Positions 12,371 to 63,022 of a stretch of 64,000 nt of DNA are shown here, piece after piece (positions within the stretch are counted from its first letter, which is position 1; each line of letters opens with the position of its first letter). Location: assembly GCA_964016885.1 (NCBI GenBank), contig OZ024742.1, positions 93,806,001 through 93,870,000 on the forward strand, written 5' to 3'. The notes beneath the pieces were generated by a model. That model had not been told where the DNA came from. It ran no database searches and saw only the letters and a program-made list of their open reading frames with translations. Origin of the DNA: Eledone cirrhosa. Lineage: Eukaryota. The position numbers and the translations under genes are program-made.

Positions 12371-12589
12371 GAAGGAAATGTGGTAAGGAACCAGGTGGAC
12401 CATAATGCACCAAATTACTCAATACTTAAGGTAGTAGAGTGGGTAATAGGAACGAGTAGGACCCCGACGGCTGAGCTCAAGCCGTTTCAACGACTAATTC
12501 TGGACTAAAAAAAAAATTTTTTTTATTTTAGTCCAGAATTAGCCAGTGTAACGGCTTGAGTTCAGCTGTCGGGTCCTACTCGTTTCTAT
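12370..12589 (-). mobile_element. Short fold-back element (IR 12446-12589 plus tail) in (TA)n; same family as 34570-34772
   Basis: Imperfect palindrome; shares GGACCCCGACGGCTGA and TATTACCCACTCT with the 34.6 kb copy. Confidence 0.75.
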
Positions 12590-12637
12590 ATATATATATA
12601 TGTATATATATGTACATATATATACATATATATATAC

Positions 12638-12990
12638 ATAAAGAATGAATAATAACAGGTAGACATCATAAAAAAGGTAATTTATTCCGTGTGCTTACAG
12701 TGGTCACAGTATTTGATATTTGAGTTCTGCAAATAGTTGAAAATTTGCACATAGCATAACTAGGCTGTATTACCACCGTGGAAACATTTGTAAGCACACG
12801 GAATAAATTACCTTTTTTATGATGTCTACCTGTTATTATTCATTCTTTATCTACACTCCGGAATACAGAAGGATCAGGAACTAAGTTTCTTCAACAATTC
12901 TTCCATAACTCGTTGAGTAACCTCTCACCGTACGTCAACCATATCCAGTGTAGTAATTAACCATTACTACATCTAGGATAATCCTATACC
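12638..12990 (+). mobile_element. PLE-type fold-back remnant in (TA)n with the 3' half of an HHR
   Basis: Arms 12638-12699 and 12789-12850; GAAAC-ATTT-GTA at 12781-12792; AATAAA; unique tail. Confidence 0.7.
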
Positions 12991-13029
12991 TAATATATAT
13001 ATACATATATATATATATCTATATATATA

Positions 13030-13388
13030 TATAAAGAAAAAGAGATGAAATCGAAAATGCAACTGAAGTCGTATTTTTTTAAAAAATATATATATTTATT
13101 TGGTTCCTTTACCGGTTTCGCAGTTCTTCTGCTTTTCAAAAGGTGAGTTGAGATGGAGGGTCTGTGGTTTTTCTCACATGAGAAAAACCACAGACCCTCC
13201 ATCTCAACTCACCTTTTGAAAAGCAGAAGAATTGCGAAACCGGTAAAGGAACCAAATAAATATATATATTTTTAAAAAAAATAAGACTTCAGTTGCATTT
13301 TCGATTTCATTTCTTTTTCTTTATACTTCCACTCGTGTAGGACACCTCGGTTATTTTTCATTTTGTAAAAAAAACCTCACTTTCTAAT
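13030..13388 (+). mobile_element. Palindromic PLE-derived element (147-bp arms, 2-nt spacer) with tail
   Basis: IR 13030-13176 / 13179-13325; (TA)n on both sides; near-identical copy at 35620-35965. Confidence 0.88.
13212..13249 (+). ncRNA. Minimal type I hammerhead ribozyme motif, U3-A8 variant (mirror copy on the minus strand in the left arm)
   Basis: CCTT-TTGAAAA-GCAG(aagaa)TTGC-GAAA-CCGGT-A-AAGG: stem I, core, stem II, palindromic stem III. Confidence 0.7.
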
Positions 13389-21781: not shown

Positions 21782-23888
21782 AGTAATAATAATAAATTTG
21801 AAGACTAAAATCTAAAGAGGGCTCCATAAGGATAAATATATATCAAATATATAAGAACCGTAGAGCAAATATTTAGTAAAATAACAGATTAAAGTTTAAG
21901 CAAAGAATCGCTGCTTTCACCCTTAACGGGATCTTCTGAAACTAACAAATTCAATCTGTGAACGCAGAAGTGAATATTTTAAAAAAACGTTGCAACCGGA
22001 GGAAGACAGGAATACGATACTTTCGTTCGTGGAGACGTTCCCTGGCAAAGAACGGGAAAAAATGAATATAACACGTCATTATTTAGAGCGGTGAAAAACA
22101 ATTACACGCAAAGACAAAACCACGTTTATGGTATAAAAGAAGTCGTAGACTAATATTCTATTAGGTGGTTCATAGAGACGTTCTCTGGCAATGAACGGTA
22201 AAAACGAAGATAATACGTCATATGTGGAGCGGGGAGAACAATTGCACGCAAAGTCCAAACCACGTAAATGGTATAACTGAAGTCGTAGACTAAAATTCTC
22301 ACTAGGAAACCGATTGATTCTCGGCTTCAGAGTTAAGAATAAAGTAAATAAAATCCAGAGGTAATTGAAATTAAATAAGTACATACACGCATCCATAACG
22401 TACATACACAAGCATACGCGGAAACACTCGCCATAGGTATACAAATACACGCACATACACAAAAATTGAAAAAAACCCGCACGCACATACAGAACTCACG
22501 CAACGCCTGTACCCGCACGCATACGAATGTAACACCAAATACACATAAAAAATATATATAAAAATAAATGGCTTGCATTACCCGTATAGAAAGCCGAGTG
22601 ATACGCTTAATTACATAAATAAGCATTCTAACCATCCTTCCAGCATAACCAAGAACCTGGTAAGAAACGGTTCTTTGAGGCTTTCCCATCTATCTACTAA
22701 CGAGGATATTTTCAACGACCATTCCACATATTACAATGAAGCTCTTGCTCGGAGTGGATTTGTCGATAAGGTAGCATATACAGAGTACGAGAATAGACCT
22801 AGAAGAAATAGATCTCGACGCATTATATGGTATAACCCACCATATAATATGGAGGTGGCCACACCATTAGCTAAGATCTTTCTCTCCCTTATTATGAAGC
22901 ATTTTCCCCCTACACATAAATATAGTAACATTTTTAATAGAAATACTATTAAAATTTCTTACTCTACGACTCCTAACATTGCACATAACATCACAGCTTC
23001 AAATTTAGCTAAACTACCTAGCCGTAGGAACACGTGCAACCCTGTAGTTAGAACTAACTGTAATTGTAGGAACCGGGTTGACTGCCCCCTATCCGGGAAA
23101 TGCCTCTCTAGTAACATTGTATACAAATGTAAGTTTGAAACACCCACGTCCCGTAGGGCCTACATAGGGTTAACCGCCAATAGATTCAAGCAGCGTCTTT
23201 ACATGCATACCCATTCTTTTCGTTACTCTTTAAGAAGGAATATGACGTCACTTTCAGCTTATATCTGGAGTCTAAAAGACAACCACACCCAATATAAGTT
23301 ACACTGGGGGATCCTAGTTAGGGCTAGATCGTATAACGGAAATAAAAGAACATGTGACCTCTGCGCCGCTGAGGCCCTGGAAATACTCTACGCCAAAGAC
23401 CACATCTTAAACAAAAAATCTGAGGCAATTTCGGCTTGTAAACATAAATTGAACAAAACTTTCCTGTATTACAGCCCCACTTTATACCCTAACGGATAGT
23501 ACGAACTATACGCGGATGAGTTACGTATTGATGTGGAAGCTAAGTATATTTTATGTTTATACCATTACTTATTTGTATAGGTAAGTATATATCACCTGTA
23601 TGTTTGTGAAGGTACGTATACTTTGTCGTACGCATATTTGATTGTATATGTTATGGCGTATATATTATATATTCTGGTACATATGCTTTTGGTTATGTGT
23701 ATACGTGAGTTTTGCGTCTGTGTGAGTATGCGGGTTCATACGTATGTAGAGTGTGTGTATGTGTGTACTTCGTGTTTTGGTTGACGTAGTCTCCGAACAT
23801 ATGTGTATTTACATGTAGGTATGTGTGTGCGCTTGTTATATACGTATTTATTTATTTATATACGTTTATTTAATTATATGTATACACG

Positions 23889-23919
<31 letters not shown>

Positions 23920-24603
23920 TTTTTATATATATTTGTATGTGTATTTGGTGTTACATTCGTATGCATGCAGGCGTTGCGTGGGTTCTGTATGTGCGTGAGG
24001 GTTTTTTTTGTGTGTGTGTATGTGCGTGTATCTGTATACCTATGGCGAGTATTCCCGCGTATGCTTGTGTATGTACGTTATGGATGCGTGTATGTACTTA
24101 TTTAATTTCAATTACCTCCGTATTTTATTTACTTTATTCTTAACTCTGAAGCCGAGAATCATTCGGTTTCCTAGTTAGAATTTTAGTCTACGAATCAGTT
24201 ATACCATTTACGTAGTTTGTCTTTGCGTGCAATTGTTCTCTTCACTCCACATATGACGTATTATCTTCGTTTTTTCCGTTCATTGTCAGAGAACCTCTCT
24301 ATGAACCACCTAATAGAATATTAGTCTACAACTTCTTTTATACCATAAACGTGGTTCTGTCTTTGCGCGTAATTGTTTTTCACCGCTCCAATTAATGACG
24401 TATTATATTCGTTTTTTCCCGTTCTTTGCCAGGGAACGTTTCCACGAACCAAAGTATCGTCTTCCTGTCTTCCTCCGGTTGCAACGTTTTTTGAAATATT
24501 CACTTCTGCGTTCACAGATTGACTTTGTTAGTTTCAGAAGATCCCGTTAAGGGTGAAAGCAGCGATTCTTTGCTTAAACTTTAATCTGTTATTTTATTAA
24601 ATA
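21782..24603 (+). mobile_element. Penelope-like element, 5'-truncated, with inverted ~700-bp pseudo-LTR arms, in (TA)n
   Basis: About 21868-22562 is the reverse complement of about 23915-24603; GIY-YIG ORF between; unique tail 21782-21867. Confidence 0.9.
22573..23499 (+). CDS. PLE RT thumb + Cys linker + GIY-YIG endonuclease (5'-truncated, probably Naiad-like)
   Basis: PYRKP, SNHP, WYNPPY, CNC-x5-CPLSGKC, IVY..YIGLT..FKQR..H, CDLC..E, LNKKSE..CKH. Confidence 0.9.
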   Translation: MHYPYRKPSDTLNYINKHSNHPSSITKNLVRNGSLRLSHLSTNEDIFNDHSTYYNEALARSGFVDKVAYTEYENRPRRNRSRRIIWYNPPYNMEVATPLAKIFLSLIMKHFPPTHKYSNIFNRNTIKISYSTTPNIAHNITASNLAKLPSRRNTCNPVVRTNCNCRNRVDCPLSGKCLSSNIVYKCKFETPTSRRAYIGLTANRFKQRLYMHTHSFRYSLRRNMTSLSAYIWSLKDNHTQYKLHWGILVRARSYNGNKRTCDLCAAEALEILYAKDHILNKKSEAISACKHKLNKTFLYYSPTLYPNG

Positions 24604-25271
24604 TATATATATATATATGTGTGTGTGTCATGGGATTTGACAGTTTCTGTTAACCAAATTTCACTCAACCCACAGTTATAGTAAAAGACAACTAATTGCC
24701 CAAGTAAAACTGGACTTGAAAGCTCTTTTTTGCAAACTGTTTAACTATATAGCCATGTCTGCAACTATAAAGCCATGTCTATCAGATGCAATAGAAAGAT
24801 AAATGTTTTTTTAAGATAAAAGAGAGAAGTATTTGACCAACCATGTCTGGCAAGAGAAATCTTTGGCTAAATTGTGAAGCTATTTTCTAAATCTTTTCCC
24901 CATCTCTTGGTTTAAAAGCTTCTTGTTAAGTTATACTATTCCAGTGGTTGATTTCAGGAGCTCTCATGTTTTCTCTGGCCAACCCATCTTCTAATAACAC
25001 TAGTATAAGTTTAAGGTATGTCTTGTGGAATTTTTTCTCCTGTACATTAGTGAATGACATATTATTATCTTTTTAATATTTCTATATTATAGCAAAAGTA
25101 AGTAAATGTCTCAATTTTAGAAAGCTAATATACTTTTGTTGGACATTATGGAAACAACAGAGTAAAACAGTTTTCAAAAATATTTCCTTGAGTTTAATAC
25201 TGGCAAAAATATTGATATTCCAACAACAATTGACAAGAAGCAGCATAACTAATGCTTTGTTCTTCTTAATG

Positions 25272-35182: not shown

Positions 35183-35600
35183 ATAAATTAATAAAAACAA
35201 TGAAATAAAAATAAAGAACAAGTTCCTTATATTAAAAAAATCATCATTTTACGATCGTTTCTGGGATGTATATGTGTGTTGGTATGCATATCATATAGAT
35301 CTATGTAAAAATATTACAAATTTTCAGAGGAAATATACATACCTTCACATATACATAGATCTATATGATATACATACCAACACACATATACATCCCAGAA
35401 ACGATCGTAAAATGATGAATTTTTTAATATAAGGAACTTGTTCTTTGTTTTTATTTCATTGTTTTTATTAATTTATCTTGACTCTGTTTTCCTATCGTAA
35501 ATTTTTGAATGCATCTTCTCTTTTCATATCTTCTATATTTGGATTACATTGAGTTCTTCATACTGATTGGACACTACCGTATATTTTGGTAAATTTATCT
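35183..35600 (+). mobile_element. PLE-type fold-back remnant in (TA)n
   Basis: Arms 35183-35307 and 35352-35476; GAAAC-GATC-GTA at 35398-35409; tail. Confidence 0.75.
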
Positions 35601-35619
35601 ACATATATATATATATATA

Positions 35620-35957
35620 TATAAAGAAAAAGGGATGAAATCGAAAATGCAACTGAAGTCTTATTTTTTAAAAAAATATATATATTTATTTGGTTCCTTT
35701 ACCGGTTTCGCAGTTCTTCTGCTTTTCAAAAGGTGAGTTGAGATGTGAGAAAAACCACAGACCCTCCATCTCAACTCACCTTTTGAAAAGCAGAAGAACT
35801 GCGAAACCGGTAAAGGAACCAAATAAATATATATATTTAAAAAAAAAATAAGACTTCAGTTGCATTTTCGATTTCATCCCTTTTTCTTTATACTTCCACT
35901 CGTGTAGGACACCTCGGTTATTTTTCATTTTGTAAAAAAAAAAAAAAAAAACCTCAC

Positions 35958-35965
<8 letters not shown>
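35620..35965 (+). mobile_element. Second copy of the HHR-bearing palindromic element at 13030-13388
   Basis: Arms 35620-35745 and 35767-35892; HHR 35779-35816; same tail. Confidence 0.88.
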
Positions 35966-53454: not shown

Positions 53455-54145
53455 GTGGTGGAACACCGAAAGGTAATATCCGTAGTGGTAGAGCACTCAG
53501 TCCATGGGACGAGTTAGGTAGAAGTGGTTACACAACAGTTAGTTCACCATACCGAGAACAATTGTTTCACCTTAGCGGATCCTCAGCTCGGAATGGGCAT
53601 GGTTATAAAAAACAGGAAGGACAACCGTACGAACGCGCATGCGCAGAAACCCGGTCACTTCACACAGGCAATACTAGACTGCGTGCGAGAGGTGTAAGGG
53701 AGATAACTGCGAAAGTTCGAACAGTTTTTAGGTTGAAAATAAAATTACAAAGAATCAGGGGAAATCCGATGTGTGGTTTATGTATTGACGAACGAATAAC
53801 TATTCTAAAGAGATTACGCAATAGTGATTGCCTAAACACGAGAAATGAATTTTTCACACGTTGTCCACACGTCGCCAAACACCTATTGCATAACTACAAG
53901 ACTCCGGACTGATTCTTTGTAATTTTATTTTCAACCTAATATTTTTTCGGACTTTCGCAGTTATCTCCCTTACACCTCTCGCGCGCAGTCTAGTATTGCC
54001 TGTGTGAAGTGACCGGGTTTCAGCACATGCGCATTCGTACGGTTGTCCTTCCTGTTCCTATAACCATGCCCATTTCGAGCTGAGTATCCGCTAAGGTGAA
54101 ACAATTGTCCTCGGTATGGTGAACTAACTGTTGTGTAACCACTTC

Positions 54146-62513: not shown

Positions 62514-63022
62514 ATAAAATTGAAAAAGTGAAGAATAACAAGGTCAACAGTACAAACAAGGAAATTTATTTACAATCTAACAATTGTTTCCATGATAGAG
62601 ATGTCTAGAAATTGCTAATCGCTGAAGGCAGTGGCACTCAATTTAAAATACATGCAACCTCCATCTTACCGTTATGCATATATTTTGTATTTTCTATTAG
62701 TCTCTGACGAAATGATAGAGGTTGCATGTTTTTAAATTGAGTGCCATTGCCTTCAGTGTTTAGGATTTTCTAGACATCTCTATCATGGAAACAATTATTA
62801 GACTGCAAATAAATTTCCTTGTTTGTACTGTTGACCATGTTTTTCTTCACTTTTTCTATTTTATCACTCCAAGACATATTTACATGGGAATACAAGTGAA
62901 GTCATTAACTCACCATCCACATAAACCTCTTGTTGAGTCACACAACACCGTACACTTAAACTATCCATGATAAGTAGTTTTCACAACCTCTTATTGGATT
63001 ACCTTTAACGATATATTGTTTT

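What the first reader, a model, noticed from the sequence alone, without database searches (positions are those of the whole stretch)
13030..13388. Short non-coding ribozyme element with a fixed 5' start and variable fold-back point
Seen: near-identical copies at 13030 and 35620. Both sense strands begin at (ATG)TGAGAAAAACC and end in the same tail, but the inverted arms differ (spacer 2 nt versus 21 nt, the latter at an ATG microhomology). Inference: two independent insertions of a defined ~210-nt non-autonomous RNA (PLE-mobilised, SINE- or retrozyme-like). Random truncation would rarely give the same start.
Basis: partly seen in the sequence, partly recalled or inferred. Interest (0 to 1): 0.72.

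Follow-up and report, generated by a model that had tools for sequence, protein, structure and literature searches.

The report
Penelope retroelement leader run-off hairpins
The two hairpins are short back-to-back stubs of the front end of an ordinary protein-coding Penelope-like jumping gene, and about half of the sampled copies stop at one sharp boundary 30 bases below a TATA box, likely because two DNA copies ran off the start of the element's own RNA and were joined, which would make it testable how these elements build their inverted ends.

Summary
Both hairpins are real, independent insertions, and the shared start is not chance. Positions count from the ribozyme core. In a chromosome-1 sample, 39 of 79 insertions reach furthest upstream at -45..-39; only 1 does so in the next 7 nt. 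The segment is not a separate non-coding element. It is the ~215-nt 5' leader and pseudo-LTR of an autonomous Neptune-type Penelope-like element (RT + GIY-YIG, 4.7-kb unit, 11,143 core matches). 23 of 79 copies run far into it, and all four main haplotypes have short and long copies. The boundary lies 29-30 nt below a TATA box that the stubs lack. Most likely, reverse transcription starts at two fixed sites (+107, +169) in the leader, runs off the RNA start, and the two cDNAs are joined by microhomology. A junction with a one-base centre recurs 397 times, which argues against snap-back. The hammerhead motif is a known variant, and its cut site rarely marks a start (3 of 100). No RNA data were available, so the start site is inferred. 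The scan noted this reading before for other Penelope families, here and in other genomes.

The parts
13030..13179 (-). Locus A inverted arm: leader positions -42 to +107 (short fixed 3' end, no tail)
   Evidence: (I7)
13179..13387 (+). Locus A sense arm: leader positions -39 to +169 (tail end); shares base 13179 with the inverted arm
13212..13249 (+). Minimal type I hammerhead motif, U3-A8 core variant, palindromic helix III, predicted cut after 13245; here one helix II pair is G-U
   Evidence: sequence; variant described in PMC4209133
13106..13143 (-). Hammerhead motif copy in the inverted arm of A
13326..13387 (+). 62-nt tail between the two fixed 3' ends, on one arm only
35620..35745 (-). 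Locus B inverted arm: leader positions -18 to +107 (short end)
   Evidence: (I14)
35741..35964 (+). Locus B sense arm: leader positions -44 to +169, i.e. almost the whole inferred run-off product; same core haplotype as 9 of 9 intact leaders
35741..35745 (.). 5-nt microhomology joining the two arms of B
35779..35816 (+). Hammerhead motif in the sense arm of B
35696..35733 (-). Hammerhead motif copy in the inverted arm of B
35893..35964 (+). Tail of B with an expanded A-run
12988..13029 (.). (TA)n target tract left of A (a similar tract follows 13388)
35604..35619 (.). (TA)n target tract left of B (a similar tract follows 35965)

Best explanation
The hairpins are promoterless stubs of the 5' leader of an autonomous Neptune-type Penelope-like element, likely made when two reverse transcripts primed at two fixed sites in the leader ran off the start of the element's RNA and were joined head to head. 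Shown: the same segment lies directly in front of ORF1 in full-length copies and again at their 3' end; copies end at two fixed 3' sites (+107, +169), as a rule one per arm; 5' ends pile up at -45..-39 behind a sharp edge; a TATAAAA lies at -74 and is missing from the stubs. Inferred: (1) Pol II starts at -45/-44 from a promoter carried in the 3' UTR of the preceding copy; (2) the GIY-YIG domain nicks both strands of a (TA)n tract and each end primes on the same RNA, one at +107 and one at +169; (3) when the leader copy of these sites is used instead of the 3' copy, both cDNAs reach the RNA's 5' end after only 150 and 215 nt; (4) the two cDNA ends are trimmed and joined by microhomology, which gives the variable inversion point, or one end is joined straight to the target, which gives a single arm. 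The hammerhead is carried along and mostly read through uncut. The stubs would be dead ends that cannot be transcribed from their own promoter.
For: Leader position and ORFs: (first ATG of ORF1 at +196; unit 4,672-4,689 nt in 4 tandem copies), Pfam RVT_1 and GIY-YIG. Boundary: 39 of 79 core-ascertained insertions at -45..-39 and 1 at -52..-46; 45 of 100 and 1 of 100 tail-ascertained rows (overlaps the first sample); 5,502 vs 3,123 exact matches. At A/T-flanked junctions that include C(-45), 95 of the 100 listed stop exactly there and 4 carry C(-46) (hand tally; 229 matches in all). TATA motif in 31 of 32 arms that reach -80, CCAAT at -123. Extra G before A(-44) in 17 of 100 listed, against 4 of 100 before T(-41) (hand tallies; Fisher p = 0.005), as expected from cap copying (described for L1 in PMC11702581, passage). 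By-product, not own lineage: each of the 4 main haplotypes holds short and long arms. Same template for both arms: identical at core sites in 19 of 23 pairs against 5.4 in shuffles; both arms long 9, one long 2, neither 31 of 42. Two cDNAs rather than snap-back: 5'-most arm is tail type 12, short type 10, unclear 2 of 24; a palindromic junction with a one-base centre has 397 exact copies, and both centre letters occur relative to the tail (5 and 3 of 19 junctions), as expected if two ends at -45 anneal over 3 nt with a central mismatch. Two adjacent internal initiation sites and extension of both target strands are shown in vitro for another PLE (PMC11167929, parts 1-2 of 4 read).
Against: No RNA evidence for the start site. 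The edge is at C(-45), one base upstream of the A expected for a pyrimidine-purine initiator, and C precedes A(-44) more often (43 of 100) than G (17 of 100). An extra G before C(-45) is seen in only 1 of 100, which does not fit a capped start at -45. The extra G could also come from repeated copying of the end or from (TG)/(GA) flanks. 4 of 23 arm pairs differ at core sites, and gene conversion between arms could produce the concordance. Junction asymmetry could partly be later deletion at palindrome centres. The mapped D. virilis Penelope promoter is internal and TATA-less (PMC2377424, passages). Breakpoint samples come only from the first 35-44 Mb of contig C1. The data cannot tell whether the template was full-length mRNA or a transcript from an ORF-less copy that kept the promoter.
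Confidence: 0.7

Rival explanations
1. One reading: a separate ~210-nt non-autonomous RNA (SINE- or retrozyme-like) that propagates from its own short master copies using the PLE protein.
For: Fixed 5' and 3' ends; short copies outnumber long ones; non-autonomous PLE derivatives exist (PMC8557442 passage; bioRxiv 10.64898/2026.07.22.740005).
Against: Identical to the leader of coding copies; none of the 4 main haplotypes is short-only; TATA lies outside the stub; no A/B box or tRNA; nearest same-strand core matches among the first 100 are 1.9 kb apart; starts at the ribozyme cut are rare, 3 of 100.
Confidence: 0.07
2. The boundary is not the RNA start but a site-specific stop or cut: a protein or structural roadblock for the RT, or RNA/DNA cleavage at -45, on a longer template.
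For: The edge is at C(-45) with almost no extra G; PLE endonucleases cut AT-rich DNA in their own pLTR region (PMC11167929).
Against: TATA 29-30 nt upstream; G excess before A(-44); about 3,100 arms read straight through the site, so a roadblock would have to be leaky.
Confidence: 0.13
3. Same template, but the inverted arm comes from snap-back self-priming of a single cDNA, or from an antisense template as proposed in PMC3846280, followed by deletions at the centre.
For: Arms match each other and have correlated lengths (Spearman 0.59); one recurring junction (-45/-39) fits a 2-bp stem with a 4-nt loop.
Against: A cDNA primed at +107 cannot copy a tail by folding back, yet the short arm is the 5'-most in 10 of 24 clear cases, including a -45/-39 junction (L016/L017); centres of 0-1 nt cannot be hairpin loops.
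Confidence: 0.08
4. The two window loci are one insertion duplicated and then deleted at the centre.
For: B differs from A mainly by loss of 23 nt at an ATG.
Against: Flanks unrelated (best local scores 22 and 27); different haplotype in both arms; B's junction includes bases -44/-43 that A lacks.
Confidence: 0.02

Closest known systems
Inverted 5'-truncated pLTR plus one-sided tail of canonical EN+ Penelope-like elements, Neptune/Nematis type (Craig et al. 2021, PMC8557442, passages; Arkhipova et al. 2013, PMC3846280, passages)
   Same: RT with C-terminal GIY-YIG, CX4CxxC linker, partial tandems forming pLTRs, adjacent inverted truncated copy, tail on one side, (TA)n targets, hammerhead in the pLTR, TATA in the pLTR (A. 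vaga).
   Different: Tail is 62 nt rather than 30-40. About half of the insertions stop at one 5' boundary; the passages read describe 5' truncation as frequent but name no fixed stop. ORF1 is separated from RT-EN by a -1 overlap.
PAc, Poseidon element of Anolis carolinensis (Frangieh et al. 2024, PMC11167929, abstract and parts 1-2 of 4)
   Same: Two adjacent internal RT start sites whose distance is the tail; both target strands cut and extended; AT-rich targets; hammerhead cleavage not needed for insertion.
   Different: Other clade; there the start sites lie inside the ORF, here upstream of the ATG. The parts read do not treat head-to-head pairs or run-off at the RNA start.
Minimal type I hammerheads of metazoan PLEs (Cervera and de la Pena 2014, PMC4209133, parts 1-2 of 4)
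   Same: Short helix I, G10.1-C11.1 pair, palindromic helix III, U3-A8 core covariation; dual motifs 100-700 bp apart on opposite strands noted there.
   Different: That paper calls dispersed motifs probably truncated PLEs and does not map their 5' ends. Activity of this motif is untested.
Animal non-LTR retrozymes (bioRxiv 10.64898/2026.07.22.740005, part 1 of 5 and passages)
   Same: Short, non-coding, type I hammerhead, related to PLE pLTRs.
   Different: Retrozymes are head-to-tail arrays processed at the ribozyme; these stubs are head-to-head or single, start 72 nt upstream of the cut site, and share haplotypes with coding copies.
L1 twin priming and cap-derived extra G (PMC11702581, passages); minus-strand strong-stop DNA of LTR elements (recalled)
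   Same: Both target ends prime on one RNA and are joined by microhomology; extra G at full-length 5' junctions; a short product running off the RNA 5' end.
   Different: L1 twin priming inverts without duplicating, whereas both arms here cover the same sequence. Strong-stop DNA is a tRNA-primed intermediate, not an integrated end product.

Membership tests
EN+ Penelope-like element (parent) | RT followed by C-terminal GIY-YIG endonuclease | tested here: met
   Pfam RVT_1 E 1.5e-06 (just under the curated cut-off) and GIY-YIG E 3e-06 on the 775-codon ORF; DKG and YLDD motifs
EN+ Penelope-like element (parent) | Partial tandem forming pLTRs, with the segment in front of the ORF and at the 3' end | tested here: met
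EN+ Penelope-like element (parent) | Inverted 5'-truncated copy and one-sided tail | tested here: met
   42 of 79 insertions two-armed, as a rule one short end and one tail end; tail 62 nt
EN+ Penelope-like element (parent) | Single ORF | tested here: not met
   Two ORFs overlapping in the -1 frame in 9 of 9 copies examined; Fig. 1 legend of PMC8557442 allows ORF1 separated by a frameshift in some PLE types
Neptune/Nematis clades | CX2-5CxxC linker and CCHH motif in the endonuclease | tested here: met
   CX4CxxC before the EN, two Cys inside the GIY-YIG core and downstream His, read by eye; excludes Hydra and Penelope/Poseidon by the criteria of PMC8557442
Neptune/Nematis clades | Phylogenetic placement with reference RTs (Neptune versus Nematis) | not tested
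   No named reference among the 120 listed of 717 hits
Minimal type I hammerhead | Helix I, core box, helix II, GAAA, palindromic helix III, NUH cut site | tested here: met
   Helices I and II in the monomer fold; dimer -22.5 against 2 x -7.5 kcal/mol through the palindrome; U3-A8 variant. Monomer z-scores are not significant and Rfam found no hammerhead
Minimal type I hammerhead | Self-cleavage | not testable with these tools
   Weak hint only: 86 A/T-flanked starts near +28 against 16 at -19, patterns not equivalent; 3 of 100
Non-LTR retrozyme | Head-to-tail tandem monomers each with a hammerhead | tested here: not met
   one duplicated whole hairpin (L245) among 100 tail rows
Non-LTR retrozyme | Unit ends set by the ribozyme cut | tested here: not met
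   45 of 100 start at -45..-39, 3 of 100 at +25..+31
Non-LTR retrozyme | Circular monomeric RNA | not testable with these tools
   no RNA holder listed
SINE | Internal Pol III promoter or tRNA-derived head | tested here: not met
   No A box, B box or tRNA
SINE | Own lineage of short master copies | tested here: not met
   All 4 main haplotypes shared with long copies; only 5 variable sites, so resolution is coarse

The most novel reading that the evidence does not exclude
Penelope-like elements have a strong-stop product: the commonest outcome of their retrotransposition is a pair of cDNAs primed from both cut target strands at two fixed leader sites on one sense, capped RNA, run off at the transcription start and fused end to end. 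The genome then holds thousands of single-base records of the start site, and inverted pLTRs and tails arise by duplicative twin priming, not by self-priming on an antisense template.
Probability: 0.55. Interest if true: 0.65.

Novelty: new variant of a known kind. Interest (0 to 1): 0.48.

Why it matters
How Penelope-like elements, the sister group of telomerase, make their inverted repeats and one-sided tails is open: PMC3846280 proposes self-priming on an antisense template, PMC8557442 endonuclease resolution, and PMC11167929 leaves the later steps unvalidated. If the reading here holds, the template is the sense RNA, both target ends prime, and the start site is predicted to within a base, which one 5' RACE or CAGE experiment can test. 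In practice it also warns that abundant short hammerhead-bearing repeats with fixed ends need not be SINEs or retrozymes. The element family and its architecture are of a known kind.

Tried and rejected
Rfam gave only sub-threshold microRNA hairpin hits, no hammerhead. RNA: no RNA holder listed; laying X1, X2, X6, X7 on a full-length leader gave contigs only, X1 with two short pieces, so nothing on start, strand or splicing; the depth step in X2 was not used, since contig depth is no copy number and X2 may be the source sample. Start at the hammerhead cut as the main 5' end: rejected. Splice-acceptor or trans-splicing explanation for the boundary: rejected, because copies include the CAG at -45..-43. 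Twin hairpins beside the two 3' ends (lead from e1-8804728): not seen by simple folding; both ends lie at short TATA runs instead. Intron-less copies of the putative 97-nt leader intron: 0 in 245 held loci, uninformative without RNA. An unmasked all-against-all BLAST timed out. Look-up of earlier notes by this sequence found none. Literature: seven searches returned no paper whose listing or read passages describe a fixed run-off boundary in PLE insertions; subscription papers (for example Arkhipova 2006) and all supplements were not seen and may hold it.

Full report
Coordinates. Positions are given relative to the first base of a 32-nt core inside the hammerhead motif (0 = window 13218 in locus A, 35785 in locus B).

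1. The observation. Both loci exist as described. A has arms of 147 nt with a 2-nt spacer, B arms of 126 nt with a 21-nt spacer. Each has one arm ending at +107 and one carrying a 62-nt tail to +169, and both sit in (TA)n. The starts are close but not equal: A -42 (inverted arm) and -39, B -44 and -18 (inverted arm), with a 5-nt microhomology in B. The flanks are unrelated. A and B carry different haplotypes, each in both arms. They are independent insertions.

2. The ribozyme. The sense arm holds a minimal type I hammerhead at -6..+31: 4-bp helix I, core with U3 and A8, 4-bp helix II, GAAA, a palindromic helix III and a GUA cut site after +27. The U3-A8 covariation and dimer-dependent helix III are described for PLEs in PMC4209133 (parts 1-2 of 4 read). 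Folding recovers helices I and II in B, but not better than shuffles; two copies pair through the palindrome. Rfam found no hammerhead. Activity is untested.

3. The family. The core has 11,143 exact matches in the 3.0-Gb genome and a 30-mer of the tail 7,255. I fetched all of the first 100 core matches on contig C1. Several run far upstream. L079 extends 3,352 nt into an ORF with RT and GIY-YIG domains. A search with the ORF's 5' part (407 candidates, 40 scored, 30 fetched) showed the same segment directly in front of the ORF in partial tandems. In 15 larger regions the unit is 4,672-4,689 nt (4 tandem copies), the first ATG lies at +196, and a 400-aa ORF1 is followed by a 775-codon RT-EN frame. 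A CX4CxxC linker, a CCHH-type endonuclease and DKG place it with Neptune/Nematis by the criteria of PMC8557442 (passages); no tree was made. So the short element is the 5' leader and pseudo-LTR of an autonomous PLE.

4. The fixed start is real. The 100 arms form 79 insertions. Their 5'-most base lies at -45..-39 in 39, at -52..-46 in 1, at -145..-46 in 7, beyond -145 in 23 and at -38..-1 in 10. The stop rate is 9.8% per nt in the peak and 0.27% per nt upstream. A second sample chosen by the tail (all 100 listed rows, overlapping the first sample) gave 45, 1, and 20 beyond -145, with 3 at the ribozyme cut. My partner rule missed a few inverted arms (for example L013, L204, L214, L241). Genome-wide, equal-length 27-mers starting at -44 and -51 have 5,502 and 3,123 matches. 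At junctions flanked by six A/T that include C(-45), 95 of the 100 listed stop there, 4 carry C(-46) and 1 has G (hand tally).

5. What the boundary is. Long copies have TATAAAA at -74, CCAAT at -123, an E2F-like word at -153 and an E-box at -314 (the last two labels are recalled). The TATA motif is kept in 31 of 32 arms. The boundary is 29-30 nt below it, the usual distance to a Pol II start (general knowledge). The base before A(-44) at A/T-flanked junctions is C 43, T 32, G 17, A 8 of 100 listed; before T(-41) it is G in 4 of 100 (p = 0.005). An extra G marks cap copying in L1 (PMC11702581, passage). Against this: G precedes C(-45) in only 1 of 100, the G could come from reiterated copying or flank repeats, and the D. 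virilis promoter is internal and TATA-less (PMC2377424, passages), although A. vaga pLTRs have a TATA (PMC3846280, passages). The start site is therefore inferred; no RNA run was available.

6. By-product, not lineage. At five variable sites, each of the four main haplotypes contains short and long arms (15/5, 17/9, 13/8, 10/4), and B matches 9 of 9 intact leaders. The stubs lack the TATA box and have no Pol III boxes. The nearest same-strand core matches among the first 100 are 1.9 kb apart. This is not how a retrozyme (bioRxiv 10.64898/2026.07.22.740005, part 1 and passages) or a SINE looks. It remains possible that ORF-less copies which kept the promoter supply some templates in trans.

7. 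The inversion. 42 of 79 insertions are two-armed, as a rule with one +107 end and one +169 end. Both arms are long in 9, one in 2, neither in 31, and arms agree at core sites in 19 of 23 pairs against 5.4 in shuffles, so both derive from one source. The 5'-most arm is the tail arm in 12, the short arm in 10 and unclear in 2 of 24 clear cases. A cDNA primed at +107 cannot gain the tail by folding back. The commonest junction is a palindrome with a one-base centre: 397 exact copies, with both centre letters relative to the tail. That fits two cDNA ends at -45 annealing over three bases with a central mismatch, and it does not fit a hairpin loop. PMC11167929 (parts 1-2 of 4) shows for another PLE two adjacent internal start sites, extension of both target strands, and insertion without ribozyme cleavage. 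Later deletion and gene conversion in palindromes could blur these signals.

8. Verdict. The best reading is leader run-off with two-sided priming (0.7). The architecture and ribozyme are known PLE features. The run-off boundary was not in the passages I read (searches; supplements and subscription papers not seen). The scan has reached the same reading for other PLE families in this and other genomes; I had noted the run-off idea before the look-ups, and these notes are not counted as support.

Noticed in passing
L149:2847-2937 (also L150-L152, L154, L157-L159, L162): The parent PLE has two ORFs overlapping by about 90 nt in the -1 frame in 9 of 9 copies examined, with an in-register T TTT TTA heptamer and a weak downstream stem: a candidate programmed -1 frameshift. 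PMC8557442 Fig. 1 legend mentions frameshift-separated ORF1 in some PLE types. L079 is 5'-truncated right at this site.
   Followed up: partly
window 13243-13339 (+); L149 leader +25..+121: A possible 97-nt intron in the leader: the donor GT coincides with the GU of the hammerhead cut triplet, and a pyrimidine tract ends in TAG inside the tail. 0 intron-less copies in 245 loci.
   Followed up: partly
leader +103..+107 and +169..+175 (L149): Both fixed 3' ends lie at short TATA runs that could pair with the nicked (TA)n target, but a longer TA run at +42..+52 is not a usual end, so complementarity alone does not choose the sites.
   Followed up: no
window 12635-12990 and 35183-35600: Two other inverted repeats with one-sided tails, unrelated to this family and to each other, lie directly upstream of A and B; their (TA)n ends apparently served as targets. 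L104 shows a relative of the second next to another copy.
   Followed up: partly
L170, L173, L174, L189, L192, L193: Internal duplications in which the sequence restarts near +28, the predicted ribozyme cut, after running to +40..+60; may record template jumps at cleaved RNA ends, but the search selected for this position.
   Followed up: partly
L133/L134, L132, L053, L060, L026: Short reiterations of the first 15-30 nt of the leader at the 5' junction, as if the RT re-engaged the RNA start after running off.
   Followed up: no
window 21869-24604, 53611-54056, 62514-62864, 12456-12581: Further inverted-repeat elements (for the last), not examined; probably other PLE families.
   Followed up: no
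P0012, P0038, P0042, P0060: Close relatives of the RT-EN protein (45-50% identity) are deposited under bacterial symbiont names, likely host PLE contamination in metagenome bins.
   Followed up: no
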